A stretch of DNA of 64,000 nucleotides, from positions 24,180,001 to 24,244,000 of the forward strand of contig OX597836.1 of NCBI GenBank assembly GCA_951406725.2. Reading direction: 5' to 3'. Under the pieces are notes generated by a model. The model made no database searches and was not told where the DNA came from. It worked only from the letters and a program-made list of their open reading frames with translations. Origin of the DNA: Octopus vulgaris (Eukaryota). Shown here piece after piece: positions 128-62,350 of this stretch; position 1 is the stretch's first letter, and each line of letters begins with the position of its first letter. The position numbers and the translations under genes were made by a program.

Positions 128-1188
128 CAAGGGATGGACAAAATAATGGAAGCACCTTAAAATTTTAAAGAAATTTATTTTAATATGGGGTAATTACAGC
201 TTCGAGGTATGGACTCGGACAAAGTGTGAGTTGTTTCCAAATGAATTTTTGTCCATTCTACAACTAAAACAGTCTCCAGATTTTGTAGTGGTGATAGTGG
301 ATGATATTGACACCTTACTTGTTTTTCTAAAATGCACCATAAATGTTCAATAATATTGAGATCTGGGGACTGTGGTTGCCAGATAAGATGTTCAACTTTG
401 CTAGAATGTACCTTGTGCCATTCACTAACAACTTTAGCTGTGTGAATTAATCCATTATCATCATGAAAGATTGCGTTTTCCTCTGGAAACAGGTTCGCAA
501 ACATAGAATGAATTTGATCAGATAAAATGCTTAAATTATCTTGATTATTAATTCTGCCATGAAGGGAAACCATTGGGCCGGCGGATTTCCAAGATATAGC
601 CACCCCCAGATCATCACAGATCCTCCTCCATGTTTAACAGTTGGAAGAATGCAGTCTGAGTCAAATGCTTCTTTTGGCTGTCTCTACACGTATACTCGGC
701 CGGTAGTCGGAAATAAGGTAAAGAATGACTCGTCCTAGAAAATAACATTCTTTCACTGCTCTAAGGATCAATTTTGTAGGTTTCTACTCCAATCTAAATG
801 CTTTGCAACATTTGTTTTTGAAAGTAGTGGTTTTCTGATTGCAGCCCTCCCGTGAAATCCGGCTTTGTGCAGCTCCTGATGAACAGCTTTTGTGGAAACC
901 AAGTTATCGAAGTGGTCATTAAGCTCTGCAATAATTTTGGGAATTGTACTTTTGTGATTCTTTCTAACAATTCGCGTGAGAATTCGACGGTCCCTATCTG
1001 AAAGTTTTGGTTTTCTTCCGGAATTTTGTTTCGACGAGAATATTTTTCTCTTCTTTCTCAAAGTCTATCATTACTTTCGAGGCAGTACTTCTTTATACAT
1101 CAAACATTTCGGCTGTTTTCGTTACGCTAGCGCCTGCCATTCGAGCACCAACAATTTCACCTCTGTATATGCATTGATTTTTTCCCAT
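128..1188 (-). mobile_element. Tc1-family DNA transposon with frameshifted transposase pseudogene, DD36E-type spacing
   Basis: Minus-strand fragments: RGEIVGARMAGASVTKTAE, NSGRKPKLSDRDRRIL, DES (~728-736), KHGGGSVMIW and FHDDN...WQPQSPDLNIIEHLW. TA followed by a TIR-like CAAGGGATGGACAAAATAATGG at 126-150. The second TIR was not found. Confidence 0.92.
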
Positions 1189-11472: not shown

Positions 11473-11783
11473 TATAATCAAAATAAACAAGGATATCCAA
11501 GGTAGAGTATTACAATTGTTTCATGCTACTTCATTTTATTAAGGACTCTAAGTATTACATCAGTTTTAAAATGTCGAGCAATCTTCAGCCACATATAGAA
11601 TTTTCCAATTAAACGGACAATGCACATTCTTGCGCATTGTCCGTTTAATTGGAAAATTCTATATGTGGCTGAAGATTGCTCGACATTTTAAAACTGATGT
11701 AATACAGTGCTTAATAAAATGAAGTAGCATGAAACAATTGTACTACTCTACCTTGGATATCCTTGTTGCTTATTTTGATTATA
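11473..11783. repeat. Long fold-back palindrome formed by a Penelope-like terminal sequence
   Basis: Arms of about 150 bp centred on CAATGCACATTCTTGCGCATTG (~11618-11639), with a few mismatches and indels. Flanked by (TATG)n and (TA)n. Confidence 0.93.
11665..11746 (+). ncRNA. Type I hammerhead ribozyme with extended stem II
   Basis: GUGG-CUGAAGA-U-UGCU...AGCA-U-GAAAC-AAUU-GUA-CUAC. Stem I GUGG/CUAC, palindromic ACAAUUGU stem III, GUA site. A mirror copy lies on the minus strand at ~11507-11592. Confidence 0.65.
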
Positions 11784-15192: not shown

Positions 15193-15286
15193 TCAAGTGA
15201 ATAATAACAGACGATGGATAATTGTCAACTGATTACAGCGCTGTAATGAGCTGACAGTTATCCATCATCTGTTATTATTCACTTGA
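15193..15286. repeat. Loopless ~94-bp palindrome next to (TA)n
   Basis: TCAAGTGAATAATAACAG...CAGCGCTG...CTGTTATTATTCACTTGA. Confidence 0.92.
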
Positions 15287-17408: not shown

Positions 17409-17571
17409 ACAATTGCAGCATGGAAGGTGTTTATAAGCCATTTAAGAAACACACAAAATCTCGTTAGATTCACTTCAACATTTAAATTTAATTACATTTA
17501 AATATTGAAGTGAATCTAACGGATTTTGTGTGTTTTAAATGGCTTATAAATACCTTCTACGCTGCAATTGT
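17409..17571. repeat. Fold-back palindrome between two (TA)n tracts
   Basis: ACAATTGCAGC...GATTCACTTCAA / TTGAAGTGAATC...GCTGCAATTGT. Confidence 0.92.
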
Positions 17572-30549: not shown

Positions 30550-30810
30550 GTAATATATGACAATTATTCGGTAGCCATGATAAAACTCCGTGTTTCGGAT
30601 GTCGGGGTGTAAATCCACGCCGCCATCCCTTCAAATGCTATGTCCGGATAACTGAAGAGATGTCGGCGTGGATTTCCACCTCGACATCCGAAACTCGGAG
30701 TTTTATCATGGCTACCGAATAATTGTCACATATTACATTTACAGATAAATTCCTCTATTTACAAAATATCGAGGTCTCTTTCATTCTTTTGCTGTCTTAC
30801 CATTTCTAAC
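30545..30810 (+). mobile_element. PLE-type terminal fragment with inverted 5' duplication, inserted in (TA)n
   Basis: Inverted arms at 30545-30632 and 30654-30741. The right arm continues for a further ~70 bp and contains a hammerhead. Confidence 0.8.
30647..30707 (+). ncRNA. Type I hammerhead ribozyme motif
   Basis: GAUAA-CUGAAGA-GAUGUCG...CGACAUC-C-GAAA-CUCGGA-GUU-UUAUC. Stem I is 5 bp, stem II is 7 bp plus an inner GUGG/CCAC hairpin, and the site is GUU. Confidence 0.72.
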
Positions 30811-32295: not shown

Positions 32296-32407
32296 ATTTA
32301 TTTTATAGAAGGAGCTTCTACAGGACTAGAACTGTTTCATTCAGATTATATTCTTCAGGAAGCTTTCTGAGTTCTAGTCCTGTAGAAGCTCCTTCTATAA
32401 AATAAAT
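32296..32407. repeat. 38-bp inverted repeat within a (TA)n-embedded insert
   Basis: ATTTATTTTATAGAAGGAGCTTCTACAGGACTAGAACT / AGTTCTAGTCCTGTAGAAGCTCCTTCTATAAAATAAAT. Confidence 0.93.
32313..32364 (-). ncRNA. Type I hammerhead ribozyme motif (weak stem II)
   Basis: AGCUUC-CUGAAGA-AUAUAAUCUGAAU-GAAA-CAG-UUCUAGUC-CUG-UA-GAAGCU. Stem I is 6 bp, stem III is 4 bp, and the site is GUA. Confidence 0.72.
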
Positions 32408-34918: not shown

Positions 34919-35084
34919 TGTATGTATGTATGTATGTATGTATGCTTGTATGTATGTATGCTTGTATGTATGTATGTATGTGTGTGTGTATGTATGTATG
35001 TATGCTTGTATGTATGTATGTATGTATATATGTAATCCTGTGTGTATTGAAATAATGTTTGGAGAGTATAAAAGCCGTACTTAC

Positions 35085-35106
35085 CACCAAAGTCCAATTA
35101 TGTTGA
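35085..35106 (-). other. Candidate 22-nt microexon (or the 3' end of a longer exon)
   Basis: Minus strand: ctttatttctacttgatgtttccag|TCAACATAATTGGACTTTGGTG|gtaagtac. Confidence 0.45.
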
Positions 35107-35674
35107 CTGGAAACATCAAGTAGAAATAAAGACCCACTAATATAGTTTGAAATCGCATGTTTGTGCAACGTGTTTCATGTATGTCTCTATACACGTGTTG
35201 CTGTTGTTGCTACTGCTGCTGCAAGTCACATAAGTCTATAAATTTGGCGGACGGGGGAGAGAGAGAGAGACGAAGAATGAAGGGGGTTTAGTATTTGGTT
35301 TTATTTATGCTTTTGTGTATAATATTTAAAAAAAAAACTAAAGGAGAGCTGCCCAAACTCAAAGTTTATGTGATATCAATAGCGAATAAATATATGGATA
35401 TGAGGATGACAGATAGGACTGTTTCAAGAAGAGCAGCTCAGCTGGACTGATAGATACTATTCAGATTGTTTTATGGAAAAGCAATGTGTTGTCTGCTACT
35501 CGGAAATATTTGGACGCAGATAGAAAATACACTTACGTTTACACTAATATTTTTAATATTCATAACGCATTAGTTTTACTAACAATTTCATATGCGTACA
35601 ATATGTGTATGCGTGTGTCTTTATACATTAGTGTGTTGATATATGCATATATACAATGTGTGTATGCACGCGCC

Positions 35675-35719
<45 letters not shown>

Positions 35720-35866
35720 GAGAGAGAGAGAGTGTATGTGTGTGTATATATATATATATATATCGAGAGAGAGAGAGAGAGAGTGATAGATAGATTTCTG
35801 AATCTATAAATATATGTGAATATATGTATATATTTGTTTATATGTACGTATATGTGTGTGTGTGTT

Positions 35867-35909
<43 letters not shown>

Positions 35910-36104
35910 GTGTATATGTATTATGCTAACATATTGGTATGCATATATATGTGGTTGTGTTTTTGTTGTTGTATATGTACATATATATATAACACACACT
36001 AAAACTTAAGAATTATTTTTAATAGTTAAAACTATATAAAATACCATCTATTTTTTTCTGTATAAATTGTAAGGATTTCCTTATTAACTTTTATATATTG
36101 TGTT

Positions 36105-36142
<38 letters not shown>

Positions 36143-36719
36143 TTTATTATTAATTATTTTATTAATTACTATTTTAAGGAAACATTGTTCTTAAAAGAAA
36201 TCGTTATTATGATTATTAATGCATTCAGCAGCCGCACAGATTCAATGACATCTTATAAATCAATGTAAACAAATCCTAAGATTTTGTTTTATATAACTCA
36301 CTTAACCCACCCCCTTTTAGCTCATCGGAATACTAGCGAGGGAATAAATATTTTCGATACATATTATTTATTATGTTCCTATGTAAAAATGCTTTTGAAA
36401 AAGTTTCCATAAAGTCGACACTATTTCCTCCATTTAAGATCCAACTCATAACTAACAACACAATAAAATGTTCCGATTTAACGAATCGATATTTCGAGCA
36501 TTTACTCCGCTACTCAATACATTTTATTCCCCATTTCCTGGATTTGAATTTTAGCGATTTCTCATTGCCGTTGTTGTCTGTAAGTGGAGGTCTTGTAGTG
36601 ATAGTGGCGGTGGTGGTGAACTGACATATTTTCGGGATGAGGGTGGGGGTGATGTTGAAAGCAACATTGTTAAATAATTGTTTTTATTTTTTTGGTTTGC
36701 TTTGTTTTATCTGTGTTTC

Positions 36720-36969
36720 TACCAATATTTAGAACACCCAACTTTCGCCAATAGGCCAATCGGTGACCAGAAATGGCATCATTTTCGTTTTCTCTCTGTT
36801 GTTCCAGTTTGTATGTATAGAAGACTATTGGATTGTCATTTTATTTTTTAAGGGCAAGTGTGTGTATGTATCCCTCAATTGAATGACTGCGCGCGCTTGT
36901 GTGTGTGAGTGTCTATGTGAGAGAAGGAAAAAGAGAGAGTGAGAGAGTGTGTGTGTGTGTGAGTGTGTA

Positions 36970-37033
<64 letters not shown>

Positions 37034-37265
37034 TATGCGTGTAGAATGTCGTGCGCGTGCGCATGTCATGGATCTCTCCTCTGGTTGTAAAGCCTGGTAA
37101 AGTAGCCGCCCACTCGCTTGAAGTTTAGCAGTCAATCACTGCTGAAGCTAGAGAGCTGCCACTGCCATTATCACATAGCGCCTGCTGGTGAGTGAATGAG
37201 AGAATGAGACATAGCTGAAGACTACAGAACGGGGGGAAAACTAACATTCTATTGGCCAATGAAGA
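36720..37265. promoter_or_regulatory. Candidate promoter or enhancer
   Basis: Unique sequence enriched in CpG and GC relative to its flanks. Clustered CCAAT boxes (~36722, 36748, 36756 and ATTGGCCAAT at 37251-37260), NRF1-like TGCGCGTGCGCA (~37052-37063), and Inr-like TCATTC on the minus strand at 36881-36886. Confidence 0.45.
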
Positions 37266-37732
37266 CCACGTTACATGTTAGCCAAACCATAGTGAACTTC
37301 TTTCTTTTCTTCCTTTTCAATTTAATACATACCTACCGTACAAGACAATCGTAATTGTACATAAATAATGGCTAGTATTCGGATTAATTTATAAGATTTC
37401 AACATACACTTTTTTAAATCTTTTTTAATTTGTTATTTAGGTTGTATTATTTCAAGTACAGCTTGTTAGTATTAATATATTTATCCGAGAAATTCTTTTC
37501 TGATAGTCAAACTTCAAATATTTTCTAGATCAAAATCTACAGATTACGTTTACGTTAATAAATTAGTTTCCATTTGTATGTAATACTATGTTACTATGAG
37601 AAAAATATTCTAAACATTATAAAACTCTCTACAAACACACGAACATTCGCTTGTGTAAATATTTGCTGATATACAGATTTTATATATAAACATATATATA
37701 AATATGTGTGTGTGTATGTGTGTGTGTGTGTG

Positions 37733-37778
<46 letters not shown>

Positions 37779-37932
37779 TGCGTCTGTAAGTATTTTTAAC
37801 TTTATATATAACAGCTATTTATTCAGAAGTTACGTAATTCTTTTGCTGATACTCTATCTGATCCACTATCAGAGTTTTTTTTATATACATCAGTCTGTAT
37901 GCAAATATTTTGTATGTGTGTATGGGTATATA

Positions 37933-37985
<53 letters not shown>

Positions 37986-38062
37986 TATGTCTATAGCTAT
38001 CTGTTTAACTATCTATCTAACAATTTACCTCCCTATCTATCTCTTTCATATATATACATATA

Positions 38063-38093
<31 letters not shown>

Positions 38094-38407
38094 ATACACA
38101 CTTTTCGTGCCAAAGGGTACTCATTAAACAGTAAAATAATGTAGTATCCTTATGTTCCGTCACTTTTGTTTCCACTGACGATTGGCTGGTTTGAATTCGG
38201 TAATATATTTTGCTTCAAATCAGTGAGGTTTTTTTCCAATTATTTGAAAATAAATTGCAATAAGTACTTGCATATTCTAATCATACTAGCTTAATTATTA
38301 AGGACAGAAAGTTGATAATTCAGCAACAACATTTTCGTTTGGTATTTTCCAATCTTGTTCAACTTTTTGAGACCTAAAATATAGAAAATAGAAAATAAAC
38401 ATTCGGA

Positions 38408-41920: not shown

Positions 41921-42430
41921 TGCCTCTGGTACATACACTATAAAGATATATATCATTATTATTGTAAACTATATCATTTTATCAATATCCATCTCAAACT
42001 ATTTATGCGGTATATTTGTTTATCAGAATAGAATAAATAAAAGATCATACCTTTAACCGACATAAGTATTGGCAGAGTTGGTGAGGAAGAGTTTAAATTG
42101 CTAGTTGCTTTTATGTTCCAAGCAGAAGAATTACTACCACCTTCTTAAATGCACCCAAGCTATTTCAAGAAACAAAAGCAATTGTCATTTAAGATGGGAA
42201 CGAAAACCAAATAGAAACAATATATAACTAAACATAATGAGCCGTCTAACCTTTGGAGGCGTTACATCTTAAAGCAAATTTCGAGAGAGGTTTAGCTTTT
42301 TGTTAATTTTATTTATTATTTTATTCATTATCAAAATGCTACCCGTTCTTGAAGCTTTGATAAAACTGGCTACATCGGGACACCTTTTGTTTTCATTGCA
42401 TACATGTGTTGGCATGTCAATTACACTCAC

Positions 42431-42440
42431 CGTAATGTGA
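42431..42440 (-). other. Candidate 10-nt microexon inside an RNA hairpin
   Basis: Minus strand: ccttttgtttctttgcag|TCACATTACG|gtgagt. Both splice sites are near consensus. Confidence 0.55.
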
Positions 42441-42781
42441 CTGCAAAGAAACAAAAGGTAATTGCTTGTGCTTTAAGAAGTACCTCTATGTTTTTTCGTC
42501 GCTCGCTTGCTTGACGTGTGATTGTATTTCTATTATTTCGCGATGTCGACGAAATAACTTACGAGGGATACAGTCATTTTCGGGAAGCTTATATTTTATT
42601 CAACATGCGACTACTTCTAACTTTTAAAACATAGTTAATGTTGGTCAAAATAAAGAAATAATTATAAATGATCTTTAATATCAAGTTGTGTTACCTCAAA
42701 CCTATACAAGATTTTGATATCCAGAGTAGTTCTTTCCATTTCATAAATTATGTTAAGCTTTCTTTATTTTAGACTAAACTC

Positions 42782-44852: not shown

Positions 44853-46117
44853 GTCACTTGAGAAAGAAATAATATTGTTTACAAGAGAAGAGTGGAAGGA
44901 TGAGCAGTTTCAGATGTCGAGTGACATTGTAGACAAATGTGACGATAAAAAATGACCAAAATCGGAGAAGGATGAAATTGGACATAAAAAAGCTAAGAAC
45001 TGCAAGACAGTGTTTAGAGAAATAGTAGAGTAAAAGTGCGGGTAGGGAAAAGAGTTACAACTACTACTGAATACGAAAGTAGCAACGAACAGACGTACAG
45101 GAGTTGAATTAAGAGAAACGGACAGAATGTTTGAAGTACCTATGCTACTATCTCATTTGAAAAAATCCAACTAGTCTGCTTACTCTGGAACAAGAAAGCC
45201 AGAAAATGCAGAACAGGAGTAAGACCCATGTATTCTCTAATTTATTAAGACAATTGATAATCAGGAAAACATCAGGAGTGCAATGTAAATACCATTCCCA
45301 ACATTGTAATTGAAGTAGATGAAGTGAGAATGGTATAACCAAGAATTGAAACTATTTCCGACAGTCTTTTATGTGCATTTCGTCCGTACACTATCAAGCA
45401 GAACTGACATTATTAGAATAGTTAAAAATAATTCATTCATTCATTTTGAGTAGACGAAGGCAACATCCTATATTTAATAGTAGTAAAAAATGGAACTTAA
45501 GGGCATTCCTCACCCCTTTTCTAATGATTATTAACGGTTAATGAGATGCAATAGCCACAACTGAAGATGGCAAACAGCTGCGTCAACTCTGCAGAAGATT
45601 CTTTCTAATTCTACTGGACTAACGGCATTAGAAGCAATATATATCATATGTGTAAATAGGCCTTACGACCTGTCCAGATTTAATGTGTCTACGATTTTAG
45701 CGGCTGTCAATTAATGCGGATACTTACACTTGAATTGAACTTTGTTTAACATCAATTGCCAATTGTAGTAAGCTTTCACATCTTTGACATGAAACGAGAA
45801 CTCAGTGGAATTAGATAAGAATTTATGGTCTTGCGCAACTGCGCAGTCTTAAAATAAGGTAATGATAGTTTCTTCCAGTGGAACATGCCAAAATTTATAA
45901 GTGGTTTGTCAGTTCAGTTGAGCCCTAGTATACAACTCGTATTATATTATTATCCCTGAAAATATTGGAACACAGAAAGTAAAACTACAAGACTAAATAT
46001 TATATCAAATATCATTACCAATAATATATATAAGCAATAATATATTCAAGCAACAAGTGACCATTCCTAAAGCGTGAAAACCACTGGTAAACTTGTCTTA
46101 TGCTCATGGCAGCGTTC

Positions 46118-46322
46118 TAGTGATCTGTTTGAATCATGACAACTGTTTCGGTCGCCGTTTTCCCCAGCAGAAAACAGAATTTCACGGAAGCACGTTGTTC
46201 TTTCGTTTCAGTCATCGCAAAAATCGATGAAGAGGAGAGGAGCACTGCAAAACAAGGATGCACCACGTGGTAGTACGATCTCACTCGATGACGCCGATTA
46301 CTTTTGGGGTACCCCCTTGCAT
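46118..46322 (-). mobile_element. mariner 5' fragment (TIR + transposase N-terminus), a second family
   Basis: MTETKEQRASVKFCFLLGKTATETVVMI preceded by a TIR-like CAAGGGGGTACCCCAAAAGTAATCGG. Confidence 0.8.
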
Positions 46323-46897
46323 ATATAAGAAGGTAGTATGTTCTAACATCGCTTACGGGAAACGAAATTCTACTGTAAGCTGTAATTGCCTTACTAATCA
46401 CATACCAAAATAACAGTGCAACTGTGATCGTGCAAAATAGATGCCTTAAACAAACAAGCTAATATCAACACCTTGTCAGCGGGGTACTTAGCCACTCATT
46501 ATCAAGTTATGGAATTATATATAAAATAGCAAACGAAAATGAGTTTTAATATTGTCTAAGAGAATCGAAATTAGTGCCTACTACAGACGGCATAGTTCCT
46601 CTACTAATCTCTATGTTGGTATCAGTTGGAAGTAGATACAAGGCAAAAAACGCAGTGCTGTATCATGAGCAAAAGGGTGTCGGGATCGAATAAAACCGTT
46701 GGCGAAATTATGGGACAAGACGAGGCCAAGTCATTCTTAGTTAGGACTGAGGGCGTTGGTGATTAACACACACACATACATGTGTGTGTGTATTCAAGGG
46801 GCATTTTTTAGGAGAGGCAGTTATTACTGTCCTAGATTATTGTAATCTTGGTATAATTGTTATTATGCATCTAATATATACATGCACACATACATAC

Positions 46898-47349: not shown

Positions 47350-48284
47350 TACCATTTGACTGGTGTAGATGAAAAAATTGCTTGCATCCATTTTCAACTC
47401 CCACCACGTTGTTCAACCTCCGTCCTTACACAAAACGAGCCATGGGTCAGAAAAGGTAGCATTTGTGATGGTGGAATGTCAAGATGTAGGCAGGTTGAAG
47501 CAGCACTTCCAGCCCATCATGTTCCTTAAGTTTGCGCTTGATTCCAATGGCAGTGTCAGCTGGGACATTGTCATGCTCTACGAGTGAGTGTCTTCGTATA
47601 ACCAATGAGTGGGTGTCTTCGTATGATGCTTTCAAAGCATCATATATTCGGTGCAGATGTTGAACACAAAGATTATCATTCATACTATAACCACTTGGGG
47701 CAAACTCAAAGTGCAACAACCCCTCAAAATTCCACCTAACACACATGATCTGTTTAAACCACCCTTATTTGACAACAAGCCAGAACGAAGCCATTGATTT
47801 CTTAACAGGATTGCGAAAATAGATCCATTTTTCATCCCCATTACAATTCAACGCCAAAGAGAGCACCTCGAGAATTTTCCAGCAGTTCTATGGGGAGGGT
47901 CACACGTCGTTGAGCCTGAACATTACTCACTTTATGGGGAGTTTCTCGACAGAGTCTTTTCACAAGGCCGACTCTATGGAGGAGTCGATTGATGCTGTTT
48001 TGTGGAGAACTAAATTCTGACGACAATGGACGAGTGCCTGTGCTTGGCTGTTGTTCAACCACTTCAAGCAATGTTTCATCTTCCACATTAGAACGTCTGT
48101 CTGACCTTGATTTGTCTTCGACGCTGGTTGTCTCCTTCCTTGAAATGTCTGAACCAGTTTTTGTACCACAGGTTCGTTGACAGTTCCTGGGTCTTTTGCA
48201 TTATTAATTTCTTTTGCCGCTGCCCTTCCAGGTAGCCTAAAGCGGCCCTAATTGCAATTTTTTACCACTCATTATCAAAGAATA

Positions 48285-50214: not shown

Positions 50215-51310
50215 TAAATTTTTCTGTTGAATGGGCTCAAACATCGTTTTTGATGACGATATGACGAAGCTCAACTTTTTAGATATTGCGCTTAATTTAC
50301 ACAATAACTCTTCCCATATCATAAACCATTGACCAATCTTAAGTACATCAGCAAATTTAGTAATTATTTTAGGACAATTACTACGAAATTAGTTAAGAAT
50401 ATTTCATTTAGATTATCTAAGTTATCTGCTAATGTTGACATTTTCAATGATAACGCTGAATTTTATAACTCTGCCTTACTTAAAGCAGGTTATACAGAGA
50501 AAATTTTCTACATTGATTTTATTCAGTCTTATTCTAACTTCAATAATGTAGATATGAAATCTAGTTGTAAAAGAATTATCGATAACAAGCATAACTTATG
50601 CACCGATACAAAGCGCATGAAGGGAGATAACCCTTATTTAATCCCCTATTATCATTCTAAAAGTAAATGTAAGGCTTTCAAAAATAATTACACTAAAAAT
50701 AAGATAAATGGTAGTAAAAATATTTGGTTCATTGTTCCATACGGGAGAAGAAGTAAATCTAATCTCCCACTGCAATTTCGTCAAGCTATTGTTAGAAATT
50801 TTCCAAAGAATTCTAGGTATTACTCTATTATCAATTCATATACAGTTAGGATTGGTTTATCCAACACAAACAATATCTTACAAATTATTTCTTCATATGA
50901 TAACAAACTGTTAAATATTTATTTAGCTAATACAAGCCAGCCCTTTAGATATATTAATAACAAGGTTATTGTATCTGAAGTCAATTCCAACAGAATTAGG
51001 TTTATGTCAAGTAACTCTAAATTTAAAAATTCTTTATACCAGTTTATAATCAGTACTCGTTATAAAGTACGATTTTACATTGGAAGCACGTCGTTAGAGT
51101 TATCTAAAAGAATTTCTATCCATTACTCAACAATGAACAATTTAATTTAGAATGGTTGATTCTCTCAATCTCGATACCTTATGATAAAGGCAAGGAATTC
51201 TGTCTTCTCTGTAATTCTGAACAAATTTTTCATTATTTTTTCTAAAAATCCCCTAGCAAACACGATTATAGAGCGTGCATACCGATGTAAACGTTGGTAA
51301 AAACACACCT
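50215..51310 (+). mobile_element. Penelope-like retroelement, 5'-truncated (RT C-terminus + GIY-YIG endonuclease)
   Basis: LNFLDIALNL and YHKPLTNLKYISKFSN, ORF 50329-51150 with NIWFIVPYG, NFPKNSRYYSIIN and LYQF...FYIGST...KRISIH, then PYDKGKEFCLLCNSE. Bounded by (TA)n tracts. Confidence 0.9.
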
Positions 51311-53019: not shown

Positions 53020-54640
53020 TTGTGTCTGCTTTCTGTCATAGTTTTGGTGAAGAAGCGAGTTGGACGAAGCAGCTCCTATTTGTGTCTCCTGTCCAGGGAG
53101 AAATTTGTACAGATGCATTTTTAAGATCTCCACATCTACACCTCGCAAATCTCTGAGGTTGCTTGGCAGGATATTAAACGGTTGCAAACCCCTAAAACTC
53201 AAGCTGTTGCAGTACTAGAGACATAAAGGCGGGATTTTTGGTATCATGCAGTGCCTTAAATTCGTTGCTTGGTACAGCTTTTAATTTCAGAGTTGGGATC
53301 TAGACGTTCCAAGGTTAGGGTTAGGGTTATATATCATTGCATATCTTTCTCGCCTTCTCTCCGGGGATTAAAGCTTCAGTTCTTTTAGCCTCTCCCAGTC
53401 GCTCAACTGCTTCACCGAGTCAATCTTCTTTGTGTAGTGGCGCTGGATTTTCTCAAGTTTCGCCACCAGGTTGGACCAGTAATCCAGATGACTAAGAATA
53501 AAATTTCTCCATAGGAGTGGCAAGGTATCTTTATTTCTGGTTCTGAATGATTTAAGAATCCATCCAGCTGCTCACCTATCCTACGTTGCCATCTTTGTAA
53601 TATGTACATGAAACGTCGCATCATTACGCATGTAGATTCCCAGGTCGCACACCGATTCTAACTCTGGGATTGCACAAAAAGTAGCGGTCCAGGTTCATTT
53701 CCTTGAGGAACTCCGCTGTGGATTGATCTCTTCCCAGAGGGAGCACCATTGGCTGTCTCACTTATGTCTTTTAACTGTTTCACTTATGTCTTTTAAAAGT
53801 CGTGCAGCCTCTCTCCCAATCTTCCAGTGATACTAAGGTCATGTAGTTTCTAAAATATCAATCCCATGATCAACTTTGTCAAAGGCCTTGGCAAAGTCGA
53901 GATAGATCACGTCCACATTTGAGTGGTTTAACATCCAGTTGTAATGTTGCAGTGACACGTGTGAGGAAGAAACCATGTTGTGTGTTTGTGAACAAGTTAT
54001 TCTCTTCCAGCAACGTGATCAGTCTCTTGACGATGCGTTCCATGACCTTGCTAACATGTGAAGTCAGAGAGATAGGTCTGTAATTTTTAGCCTCTGCTTT
54101 GCTTCCTCCTTTCTGAACAGGACATATGATACCCTCCTTTAACAGTTTGATAGTTTTCTACATGCAAGGAAACTCTGAATAAATATCTACAATGGCTTTG
54201 CGAGAGCTATCTTCCATGTTTTTAGGAAACAGCCGGAAATCCATCCGGGTCCGTTGCTGAGTTTGAGCTCTTCTCACCAATGGCCGATATTACATCTTTC
54301 TCTCTTATGTCTATGCAATCGATGGTCGCTTCTTCCTCGTGTAGGTCCACAGTGTTAAAAAACTCTTTAAGCTCGCTTATTCGCATGTTTCCCAGTGGAG
54401 AAATGAAGACACTCTGGAATTGTTTGTTTAGCATTTCATTTATCCTCTTGTGGTCTCCAGTTAGCTGGTCTTATCTTGTAATGCACCGAGGAGGCACATT
54501 CTTTCGCAAACGTCTAGAAGGCTTTGGGATTTATTTTTGTATTTTCCATCGCCCTGGTTTCTCTTTCTACTCTTTCTTTTTCATGGGAGAGTTTGAGTTT
54601 ATTTTCGATTTCTAGAAGCGCCTTCTTTGATGAGGGGTTT
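53020..54640 (-). mobile_element. CR1/L2-group LINE reverse transcriptase pseudogene
   Basis: SATDPDGFPA, NYRPISLTSHVSKVMERIV, QHG, NVDVIYLDFAKAFDKVDHG, LEKIQRHYTKKI and WERLKELKL. Confidence 0.92.
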
Positions 54641-61100: not shown

Positions 61101-61192
61101 GTCCTCCGCCAAAATATGTAATTTTGTGCTCTAAATGAAATAATAATTATTATTTCATTTAGAGCACAAAATTGCATATTTTGGCGGAGGGC
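61101..61192. repeat. 92-bp near-perfect loopless palindrome
   Basis: GTCCTCCGCCAAAATATG...AATAATAATTATTATT...CATATTTTGGCGGAGGGC. Confidence 0.95.
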
Positions 61193-62244: not shown

Positions 62245-62267
62245 AAGTTTAACTGACAATCTCGAAA

Positions 62268-62324
<57 letters not shown>

Positions 62325-62350
62325 CATTTTCGAGATTGTCAGTTAAACTT
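62245..62350. repeat. 27-bp perfect inverted repeat enclosing (TA)n
   Basis: AAGTTTAACTGACAATCTCGAAAATGT-(TA)n-ACATTTTCGAGATTGTCAGTTAAACTT. Confidence 0.95.

What the first reader, a model, noticed from the sequence alone, without database searches (positions are those of the whole stretch)
42382..42459. 10-nt microexon locked in a hairpin: 3' splice site paired, 5' splice site exposed in the loop
Seen in minus-strand RNA: the polypyrimidine tract ACCUUUUGUUUCUUUGCA pairs with downstream intronic UGCAAUGAAAACAAAAGGU (11 contiguous bp plus 6). GUCA/UGAC and AUUAC/GUAAU pair the exon itself. The 7-nt apical loop is exactly G|GUGAGU, the donor site, and a 15-nt bulge lies on the 3' side. Known: RNA structure can gate splice-site use, and microexons are typically neural-regulated. 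Inference: a structural splicing switch, U1-accessible but U2AF-blocked, that could be opened by a helicase, temperature or A-to-I editing of the A-rich strand. At 10 nt it would shift frame or alter uORFs.
Basis: partly seen in the sequence, partly recalled or inferred. Interest (0 to 1): 0.75.

Follow-up and report, generated by a model that had tools for sequence, protein, structure and literature searches.

The report
Hairpin-locked cryptic microexon upstream of Wnt6
About 7 kb upstream of an octopus Wnt6 gene, a 10-base stretch with strong splice signals sits inside a hairpin that is predicted to keep it shut; it is likely a silent cryptic exon beside a weakly expressed, apparently non-coding RNA rather than a working splicing switch, and its use in RNA is untested.

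Summary
The sequence is as described: a 10-nt exon-like unit (minus strand 42440-42431) with the best short-exon splice signals in 464 kb, its pyrimidine tract paired to a downstream arm (11 bp, predicted probability about 1). It lies 7.3 kb upstream of the Wnt6 start codon (35158), outside the coding sequence. One contig from a probable RNA run shows a minus-strand splice 42051 to 38373, so the neighbourhood is likely transcribed and spliced on the right strand 380 nt downstream. Inclusion of the 10-nt exon and its conservation were not tested. The asymmetry survives in weaker form (donor about 3 kcal/mol to open, tract 10-12). Temperature (10-37 C) and modelled editing do not free the tract, because a second, upstream arm can also pair it. 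Equally good hairpins occur in 16 of 2778 neighbouring tiles, and equally good microexon signals in 5 of 40 shuffles. Best reading: a cryptic exon held shut, not a regulated switch. A regulated leader microexon of Wnt6 remains possible (about 0.1).

The parts
42431..42440 (-). 10-nt exon-like unit TCACATTACG; use as an exon untested
   Evidence: Sequence; top score among short-exon candidates in 464 kb; matched in 5 of 40 shuffles
42441..42460 (-). Pyrimidine tract and CAG acceptor; 5' arm of the outer stem (42459-42449)
   Evidence: Score 8.4, higher than five used acceptors nearby, 0.6-5.9; paired with probability about 1 in the core
42425..42430 (-).
42382..42397 (-). Downstream A-rich arm that pairs the tract
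   Evidence: Duplex -20.0 kcal/mol, strongest of 104 strong acceptor-like sites
42401..42415 (-).
42481..42497 (-).
   Evidence: Duplex -13.9 kcal/mol, 7 of 104 sites as strong; takes over when the downstream arm is absent or blocked
42481..42580 (.). CpG-rich patch, possible start region (inferred)
   Evidence: 9 CpG in 100 nt; 1.7% of unmasked windows as rich
42051..42159 (-). Exon of a spliced, apparently non-coding RNA: donor at 42051/42050 seen in a contig; 5' end at 42159 is only a candidate acceptor
   Evidence: Loose end of one X3 contig equals 42053-42082 and gives a GT-AG junction; candidate acceptor score 2.4
38286..38373 (-). Next exon of that RNA; acceptor at 38373; 3' end unknown
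   Evidence: contig depth 3.9; single copy in the genome search
35085..35158 (-). First coding exon of Wnt6 (signal peptide region), context for the element
   Evidence: Matches the N-terminus of Octopus Wnt6 records P0009 and P0013; spliced to downstream exons in contigs of X1 and X3

Best explanation
The element is most likely a cryptic 10-nt exon that stays unused or mostly skipped, because its pyrimidine tract is predicted to be paired at every stage. Shown: the splice-like motifs, the single-copy inverted repeat, the position 7.3 kb upstream of Wnt6, and one contig with a minus-strand splice 380 nt downstream. Computed: as the RNA is made, an upstream arm captures the tract first, then the stronger downstream arm replaces it and the RNA settles into a three-way junction that also pairs the donor; freeing the tract costs 10-12 kcal/mol and does not change between 10 and 37 C. 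Inferred: U2AF cannot load, so the spliceosome would pass to the next acceptor (candidate 42159); the stem likely arose as one of the short inverted duplications common in this region and acts as a fixed lock, or does nothing if the RNA starts downstream of it.
For: Tract unpaired only 0.09-0.24 of the time at all transcript lengths tested and 0.13-0.14 from 10 to 37 C. Editing modelled as A-to-G gives 0.14-0.17 and as unpairable A gives 0.10-0.20. Short inverted repeats are frequent here: 72 rows of at least 11 bp against 7-17 in 5 shuffles (some rows are nested in one hairpin), 16 of 2778 tiles as good. Splice signals this good arise in 5 of 40 shuffles of the 371 kb of unmasked sequence. 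No Wnt6 protein record examined carries the exon's translation; the N-terminus is contiguous in one exon. One X1 contig runs unspliced from 35432 into Wnt6, and no joint links the upstream RNA to Wnt6 in 4 of 4 runs laid.
Against: The hairpin is single-copy, unlike 10 of the 16 equally good hairpins, which have other copies within 464 kb. Folding models ignore U1 invasion, helicases and kinetics. No reads over the element itself were examined, so skipping is inferred, not seen.
Confidence: 0.5

Rival explanations
1. Only one of the two sites is used. Either the RNA starts in the CpG-rich patch and the strong donor at 42430 ends a short first exon, or the strong acceptor at 42441 opens a 390-nt exon that ends at the seen donor 42051.
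For: CpG-rich patch directly upstream; donor cheap to open; the seen exon extends at least about 60 nt upstream of 42051 with its 5' end unknown; no acceptor between 42440 and 42051 has a tract as rich as the one at 42440.
Against: No start site mapped. The acceptor version needs the locked tract to open. CpG patches of similar density occur elsewhere in the window.
Confidence: 0.25
2. A real non-coding microexon that is included routinely, with the hairpin resolved by fast spliceosome assembly or simply irrelevant.
For: Both sites score above the used sites nearby; U2AF could bind before the downstream arm is made. Earlier AI notes report many microexons in this genome (unchecked).
Against: The upstream arm is predicted to pair the tract before the exon is even transcribed. 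A 10-nt non-coding exon has no evident constraint.
Confidence: 0.13
3. One reading: U1 binds an exposed donor, U2AF is blocked, and a helicase, temperature or A-to-I editing opens the stem to include the exon and reframe upstream ORFs of a distal Wnt6 leader.
For: Opening asymmetry, donor about 3 versus tract 10-12 kcal/mol. The donor-in-loop fold is favoured briefly while the RNA ends at 42415-42405 (0.79-0.80 unpaired with a 5' end at 42500). Non-coding position and nearby splice.
Against: That window drops to 0.17-0.35 with a 5' end at 42560. At equilibrium the donor is paired. Temperature and modelled editing do not open the tract. No link from this RNA to Wnt6 was seen.
Confidence: 0.12

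Closest known systems
F8 intron 15 / exon 16 three-way junction (Tse et al., as described in review PMC11802352; passages read)
   Same: A three-way junction that sequesters the pyrimidine tract and weakens the 3' splice site; the best fold here is also a three-way junction closed by the tract.
   Different: F8 exon 16 is a used coding exon and the structure was studied experimentally; here the exon is 10 nt, non-coding, unproven, and the fold is only computed.
MAPT exon 10 stem-loop and TNNT2 exon 5 hairpin (review PMC9198270; passages read)
   Same: Hairpins that mask a splice site or block U2AF65 at the tract, opened by DDX5 or stabilised by MBNL1.
   Different: Those mask one site of a normal-sized exon and have a known regulator; here both sites of a 10-nt unit lie in one fold, with no regulator or inclusion shown.
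eMIC/Srrm4-dependent neural microexons (PMC8797185 passages; PMC12871342 abstract and section 20)
   Same: Very short exon with a strong pyrimidine tract.
   Different: They have long AG-free zones, UGC and UCUC motifs, CUAAY branch points and an unpaired branch-to-acceptor region; this site has an AG at -26, no UCUC, no CUAAY, and a paired tract.
Dscam docking-site/selector pairing (PMC9198270 passage)
   Same: One element could in principle pair with two look-alike acceptor tracts (42440 and 42159).
   Different: The second pairing is 6-7 kcal/mol worse with probability about 1e-5; no array of mutually exclusive exons.

Membership tests
Spliced microexon (any) | Canonical acceptor and donor around 3-27 nt (size range recalled) | tested here: met
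   CAG / 10 nt / GTGAGT, scores 8.4 and 6.6 on recalled generic matrices
Spliced microexon (any) | Lies in a spliced transcript on that strand | tested here: inconclusive
   One contig in 1 of 4 runs shows a splice from 42051; its 5' end stops near 42114, short of the element
Spliced microexon (any) | Inclusion junctions in RNA | not tested
   No reads or contigs over the element were examined
eMIC/Srrm4 neural microexon | Long AG exclusion zone, UGC and UCUC motifs, CUAAY branch point (PMC8797185 passage) | tested here: not met
   Nearest upstream AG at -26; only UGC is inside the acceptor (-5); no TCTC or CTRAY in 120 nt
eMIC/Srrm4 neural microexon | Unpaired branch-to-acceptor region (PMC12871342 section 20) | tested here: not met
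   Tract unpaired 0.13-0.14; second most paired of 107 strong acceptor-like sites
eMIC/Srrm4 neural microexon | Neuron-specific inclusion | not testable with these tools
   Runs carry no tissue record and are contigs
Structure-masked splice site (F8, MAPT, TNNT2 type) | Stable local structure covering a splice signal | tested here: met
   Computed only:
Structure-masked splice site (F8, MAPT, TNNT2 type) | Splicing changes when the stem is broken and is rescued by compensation | not testable with these tools
   Needs a minigene
Structure-masked splice site (F8, MAPT, TNNT2 type) | Conservation or covariation of the stem | not tested
   No orthologous DNA was obtained; no look-alike in other scanned genomes
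RNA thermosensor or editing-gated splice site | Accessibility shifts over physiological temperature or on editing | tested here: not met
   Computed: no shift 10-37 C; modelled editing leaves the tract paired
Multi-copy palindromic repeat (MITE-like) | Many copies with the same terminal inverted repeats | tested here: not met
   1 match in the genome (which warns that common words are skipped); arm-pair pattern 5 loci against 7 for the control
Known structured RNA family (Rfam) | Match at gathering score | tested here: not met
   0 matches in the 64 kb window against 4227 families

The most novel reading that the evidence does not exclude
A 10-nt non-coding microexon in a distal leader of octopus Wnt6 whose acceptor is handed between two competing arms during transcription, with a brief window in which U1 catches the looped-out donor and commits the exon; inclusion reframes upstream ORFs and so tunes Wnt6 output.
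Probability: 0.08. Interest if true: 0.7.

Novelty: new member of a known kind. Interest (0 to 1): 0.3.

Why it matters
If the best reading holds, this is a small example of RNA structure silencing a cryptic exon, plus an unremarked spliced RNA upstream of Wnt6: modest value. If the exon is included under control, it would be a very compact, fully testable structure-gated microexon (78-116 nt) in a developmental Wnt locus of a cephalopod, and the opposite of the reported rule that microexon acceptors are kept unpaired.

Tried and rejected
1. Coding microexon of Wnt6. The 10 nt joined to an internal AG at 35106 would read SHYVNIIGLWW, but all full-length molluscan Wnt6 records read ...YFYL-x-x-P-x-N-(I/S)IGLW and that N-terminus is contiguous in one exon at 35158-35085. 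Rejected.
2. Docking-site competition between the 42440 and 42159 tracts. The two acceptor regions share a 12-mer found only twice in 371 kb, but the alignment score is reached by 17 of 1338 tiles including the self match, and the second pairing has probability about 1e-5. Rejected as a mechanism; a duplication is not excluded.
3. Protein-coding upstream RNA: three hypothetical isoforms give no long frame; the ATG frame across the seen junction is 31 codons.
4. Repeat family or Rfam family: negative.
6. The sigma-70 scan does not apply to an animal promoter. Atlas searches named the two flanking genes only as Wnt family.
7. Literature: 'microexon'+'octopus' (4 papers, 3 listed) and 'wnt6'+'octopus' (14 listed) showed no title or abstract start on this element; I saw listings only, except PMC9635652 (passages). 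Supplements were not read and genome annotation files, which may hold a UTR or lncRNA model here, were not available.
8. Earlier scan notes near this place or in relatives: none.

Full report
Observation. On the minus strand the window reads a pyrimidine tract ending in CAG, the 10 nt TCACATTACG (42440-42431) and the donor GTGAGT. The 191-nt stretch has one match in the 2.8-Gb genome (with the tool's caveat that common words are skipped), the arm-pair pattern is no commoner than its control (5 loci against 7), and no Rfam family matches the window.

How unusual. With recalled generic splice matrices, this is the highest-scoring of 9 short-exon candidates in 464 kb. In 371 kb of unmasked sequence, 5 of 40 dinucleotide shuffles contain a site as good (mean 0.125), and looser candidates number 6 against 4.35. 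The splice signal alone is therefore suggestive only. The inverted repeat beats 2000 of 2000 base shuffles, but 16 of 2778 neighbouring 100-nt tiles score as high, and stems of at least 11 bp are about six times commoner than in shuffles (72 rows, some nested, against 7-17). Of those 16 tiles, 10 have other copies within the 464 kb and 6 do not. Among 104 strong acceptor-like sites, this one has the strongest duplex with downstream sequence, and it is the second most paired of 107 in local folds. The combination is rare, but the first stage has read at least 423 windows of this genome, so a coincidence is not excluded.

Where it lies. Flanking DNA was fetched. A minus-strand exon 29 kb beyond the window's start matches Wnt6 of squid and bivalves, and Octopus vulgaris and O. 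sinensis Wnt6 records map exon by exon, with the start codon at window 35158. Four Wnt genes lie on this contig between 23.5 and 24.5 Mb; a wnt9-wnt1-wnt6-wnt10 cluster is described for molluscs (PMC9635652, passages). The element is 7.3 kb upstream of the Wnt6 start codon. My first idea, that it encodes part of the signal peptide, failed because that region is contiguous in one exon.

RNA evidence. Contigs of four probable RNA runs were laid on 35035-38405 (the tool marks RNA as a guess and omitted 3 rows of its table of pieces). In 1 of 4 runs (X3) one contig of depth 3.9 covers 38286-38375 and continues with 62 letters whose first 30 equal window 42053-42082; this is a GT-AG splice from 42051 to 38373 on the minus strand. 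The 38373 exon is single-copy. So a spliced RNA has a donor 380 nt downstream of the element on the same strand. It has no long reading frame in three hypothetical isoforms, which fits the many low-level lncRNAs reported for octopus (PMC9115989, passages). No joint links it to Wnt6; an X1 contig starts at 35432 and runs unspliced into the coding exon, and other pieces cover parts of 35958-37205. The contig stops near 42114, so whether the RNA reaches the element, and whether the 10 nt are ever included, is open: no reads over the element were examined, and no orthologous DNA was obtained.

Fold. The core of the outer stem has pair probability about 1.0 in all 12 conditions (three temperatures, four window sizes). 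The asymmetry survives in part: opening donor +1 to +6 costs 2.7-2.9 kcal/mol (6.8-8.8 for -3 to +6), the tract 10.3-12.5. A second arm upstream (42497-42481) also pairs the tract (-13.9 kcal/mol, 7 of 104 sites as strong). Because of it the tract stays paired at every transcript length (unpaired 0.09-0.24), and when A-rich arm positions are read as G or barred from pairing. From 10 to 37 C the tract stays at 0.13-0.14 unpaired. All of this is computed with nearest-neighbour models, which lack inosine, proteins and kinetics.

Mechanism. The most likely reading (0.5) is a cryptic exon that stays shut. Shown: motifs, repeat, position, nearby splice. Computed: double capture of the tract and a paired donor. 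Inferred: U2AF exclusion, skipping to the candidate acceptor at 42159, and origin by a short inverted duplication; if the RNA starts downstream the element is inert. These weights are my judgement.

Comparison. It would work like the F8 intron 15 three-way junction that hides a pyrimidine tract (PMC11802352, passages) and like the MAPT and TNNT2 hairpins (PMC9198270, passages), but membership needs splicing data that I lack. It fails the sequence and structure marks of eMIC/Srrm4 microexons: AG at -26, no UCUC, no CUAAY (against PMC8797185, passages), and a paired rather than open acceptor region (PMC12871342, abstract and section 20). A Dscam-like competition with the look-alike tract at 42159 is rejected. 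Two literature searches showed no paper on this element in their listings.

Verdict. New here are the Wnt6 context, the neighbouring spliced RNA and the second arm. Interest 0.3; new member of a known kind at best.

Noticed in passing
L040, G000:C23:24164571-24164521 minus (first intron of Wnt6, outside the window): A 51-nt in-frame cassette exon adds 17 residues right after the Wnt6 signal-peptide region and turns the conserved WW into WC; both inclusion (X1, X3) and skipping (X3) appear in contigs, and it is in public models P0009 and P0010.
   Followed up: partly
window 35178-35137 minus: An ATG 20 nt upstream of the Wnt6 start opens a 13-codon overlapping frame (MKHVAQT...); squid records have a similar MKYPGQT in frame as an N-terminal extension, so an extension may have become an out-of-frame upstream ORF in octopus.
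   Followed up: no
G000:C23 23.54-24.50 Mb: Four Wnt genes in orientation minus, plus, minus (Wnt6), plus. The plus-strand gene at 23.93-24.005 Mb looks like Wnt1 from recalled motifs; subfamily names of the neighbours were not established.
   Followed up: partly
window 11568-11689, 15193-15286, 17430-17550, 30592-30694, 32296-32407, 61103-61190, 62245-62350: Long near-perfect inverted repeats; those at 11600, 30600 and 32300 have further copies within 464 kb and look like palindromic repeat families, those at 15200 and 61100 have none.
   Followed up: partly
window 39430-39409 minus: Another short exon-like unit (22 nt, AAG then GTGAGT donor) inside the intron of the upstream spliced RNA; skipped in the one contig seen.
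   Followed up: no
window 36619: A-to-G difference on the plus strand in contigs of X1 and X3; on the minus-strand RNA this is U-to-C, so likely an allele, not A-to-I editing.
   Followed up: no
window 42178-42160 versus 42463-42441 minus: The two acceptor regions share TCTTAAA, CAATT and a 12-mer found only twice in 371 kb; a short tandem duplication is possible but the alignment is not clearly beyond background.
   Followed up: yes
window 175-1064, 46117-46458, 47447-48247, 50308-51150, 53412-54615: Decayed transposon-like frames (Tc1/mariner-like, GIY-YIG-like and reverse-transcriptase-like by recalled motifs).
   Followed up: no
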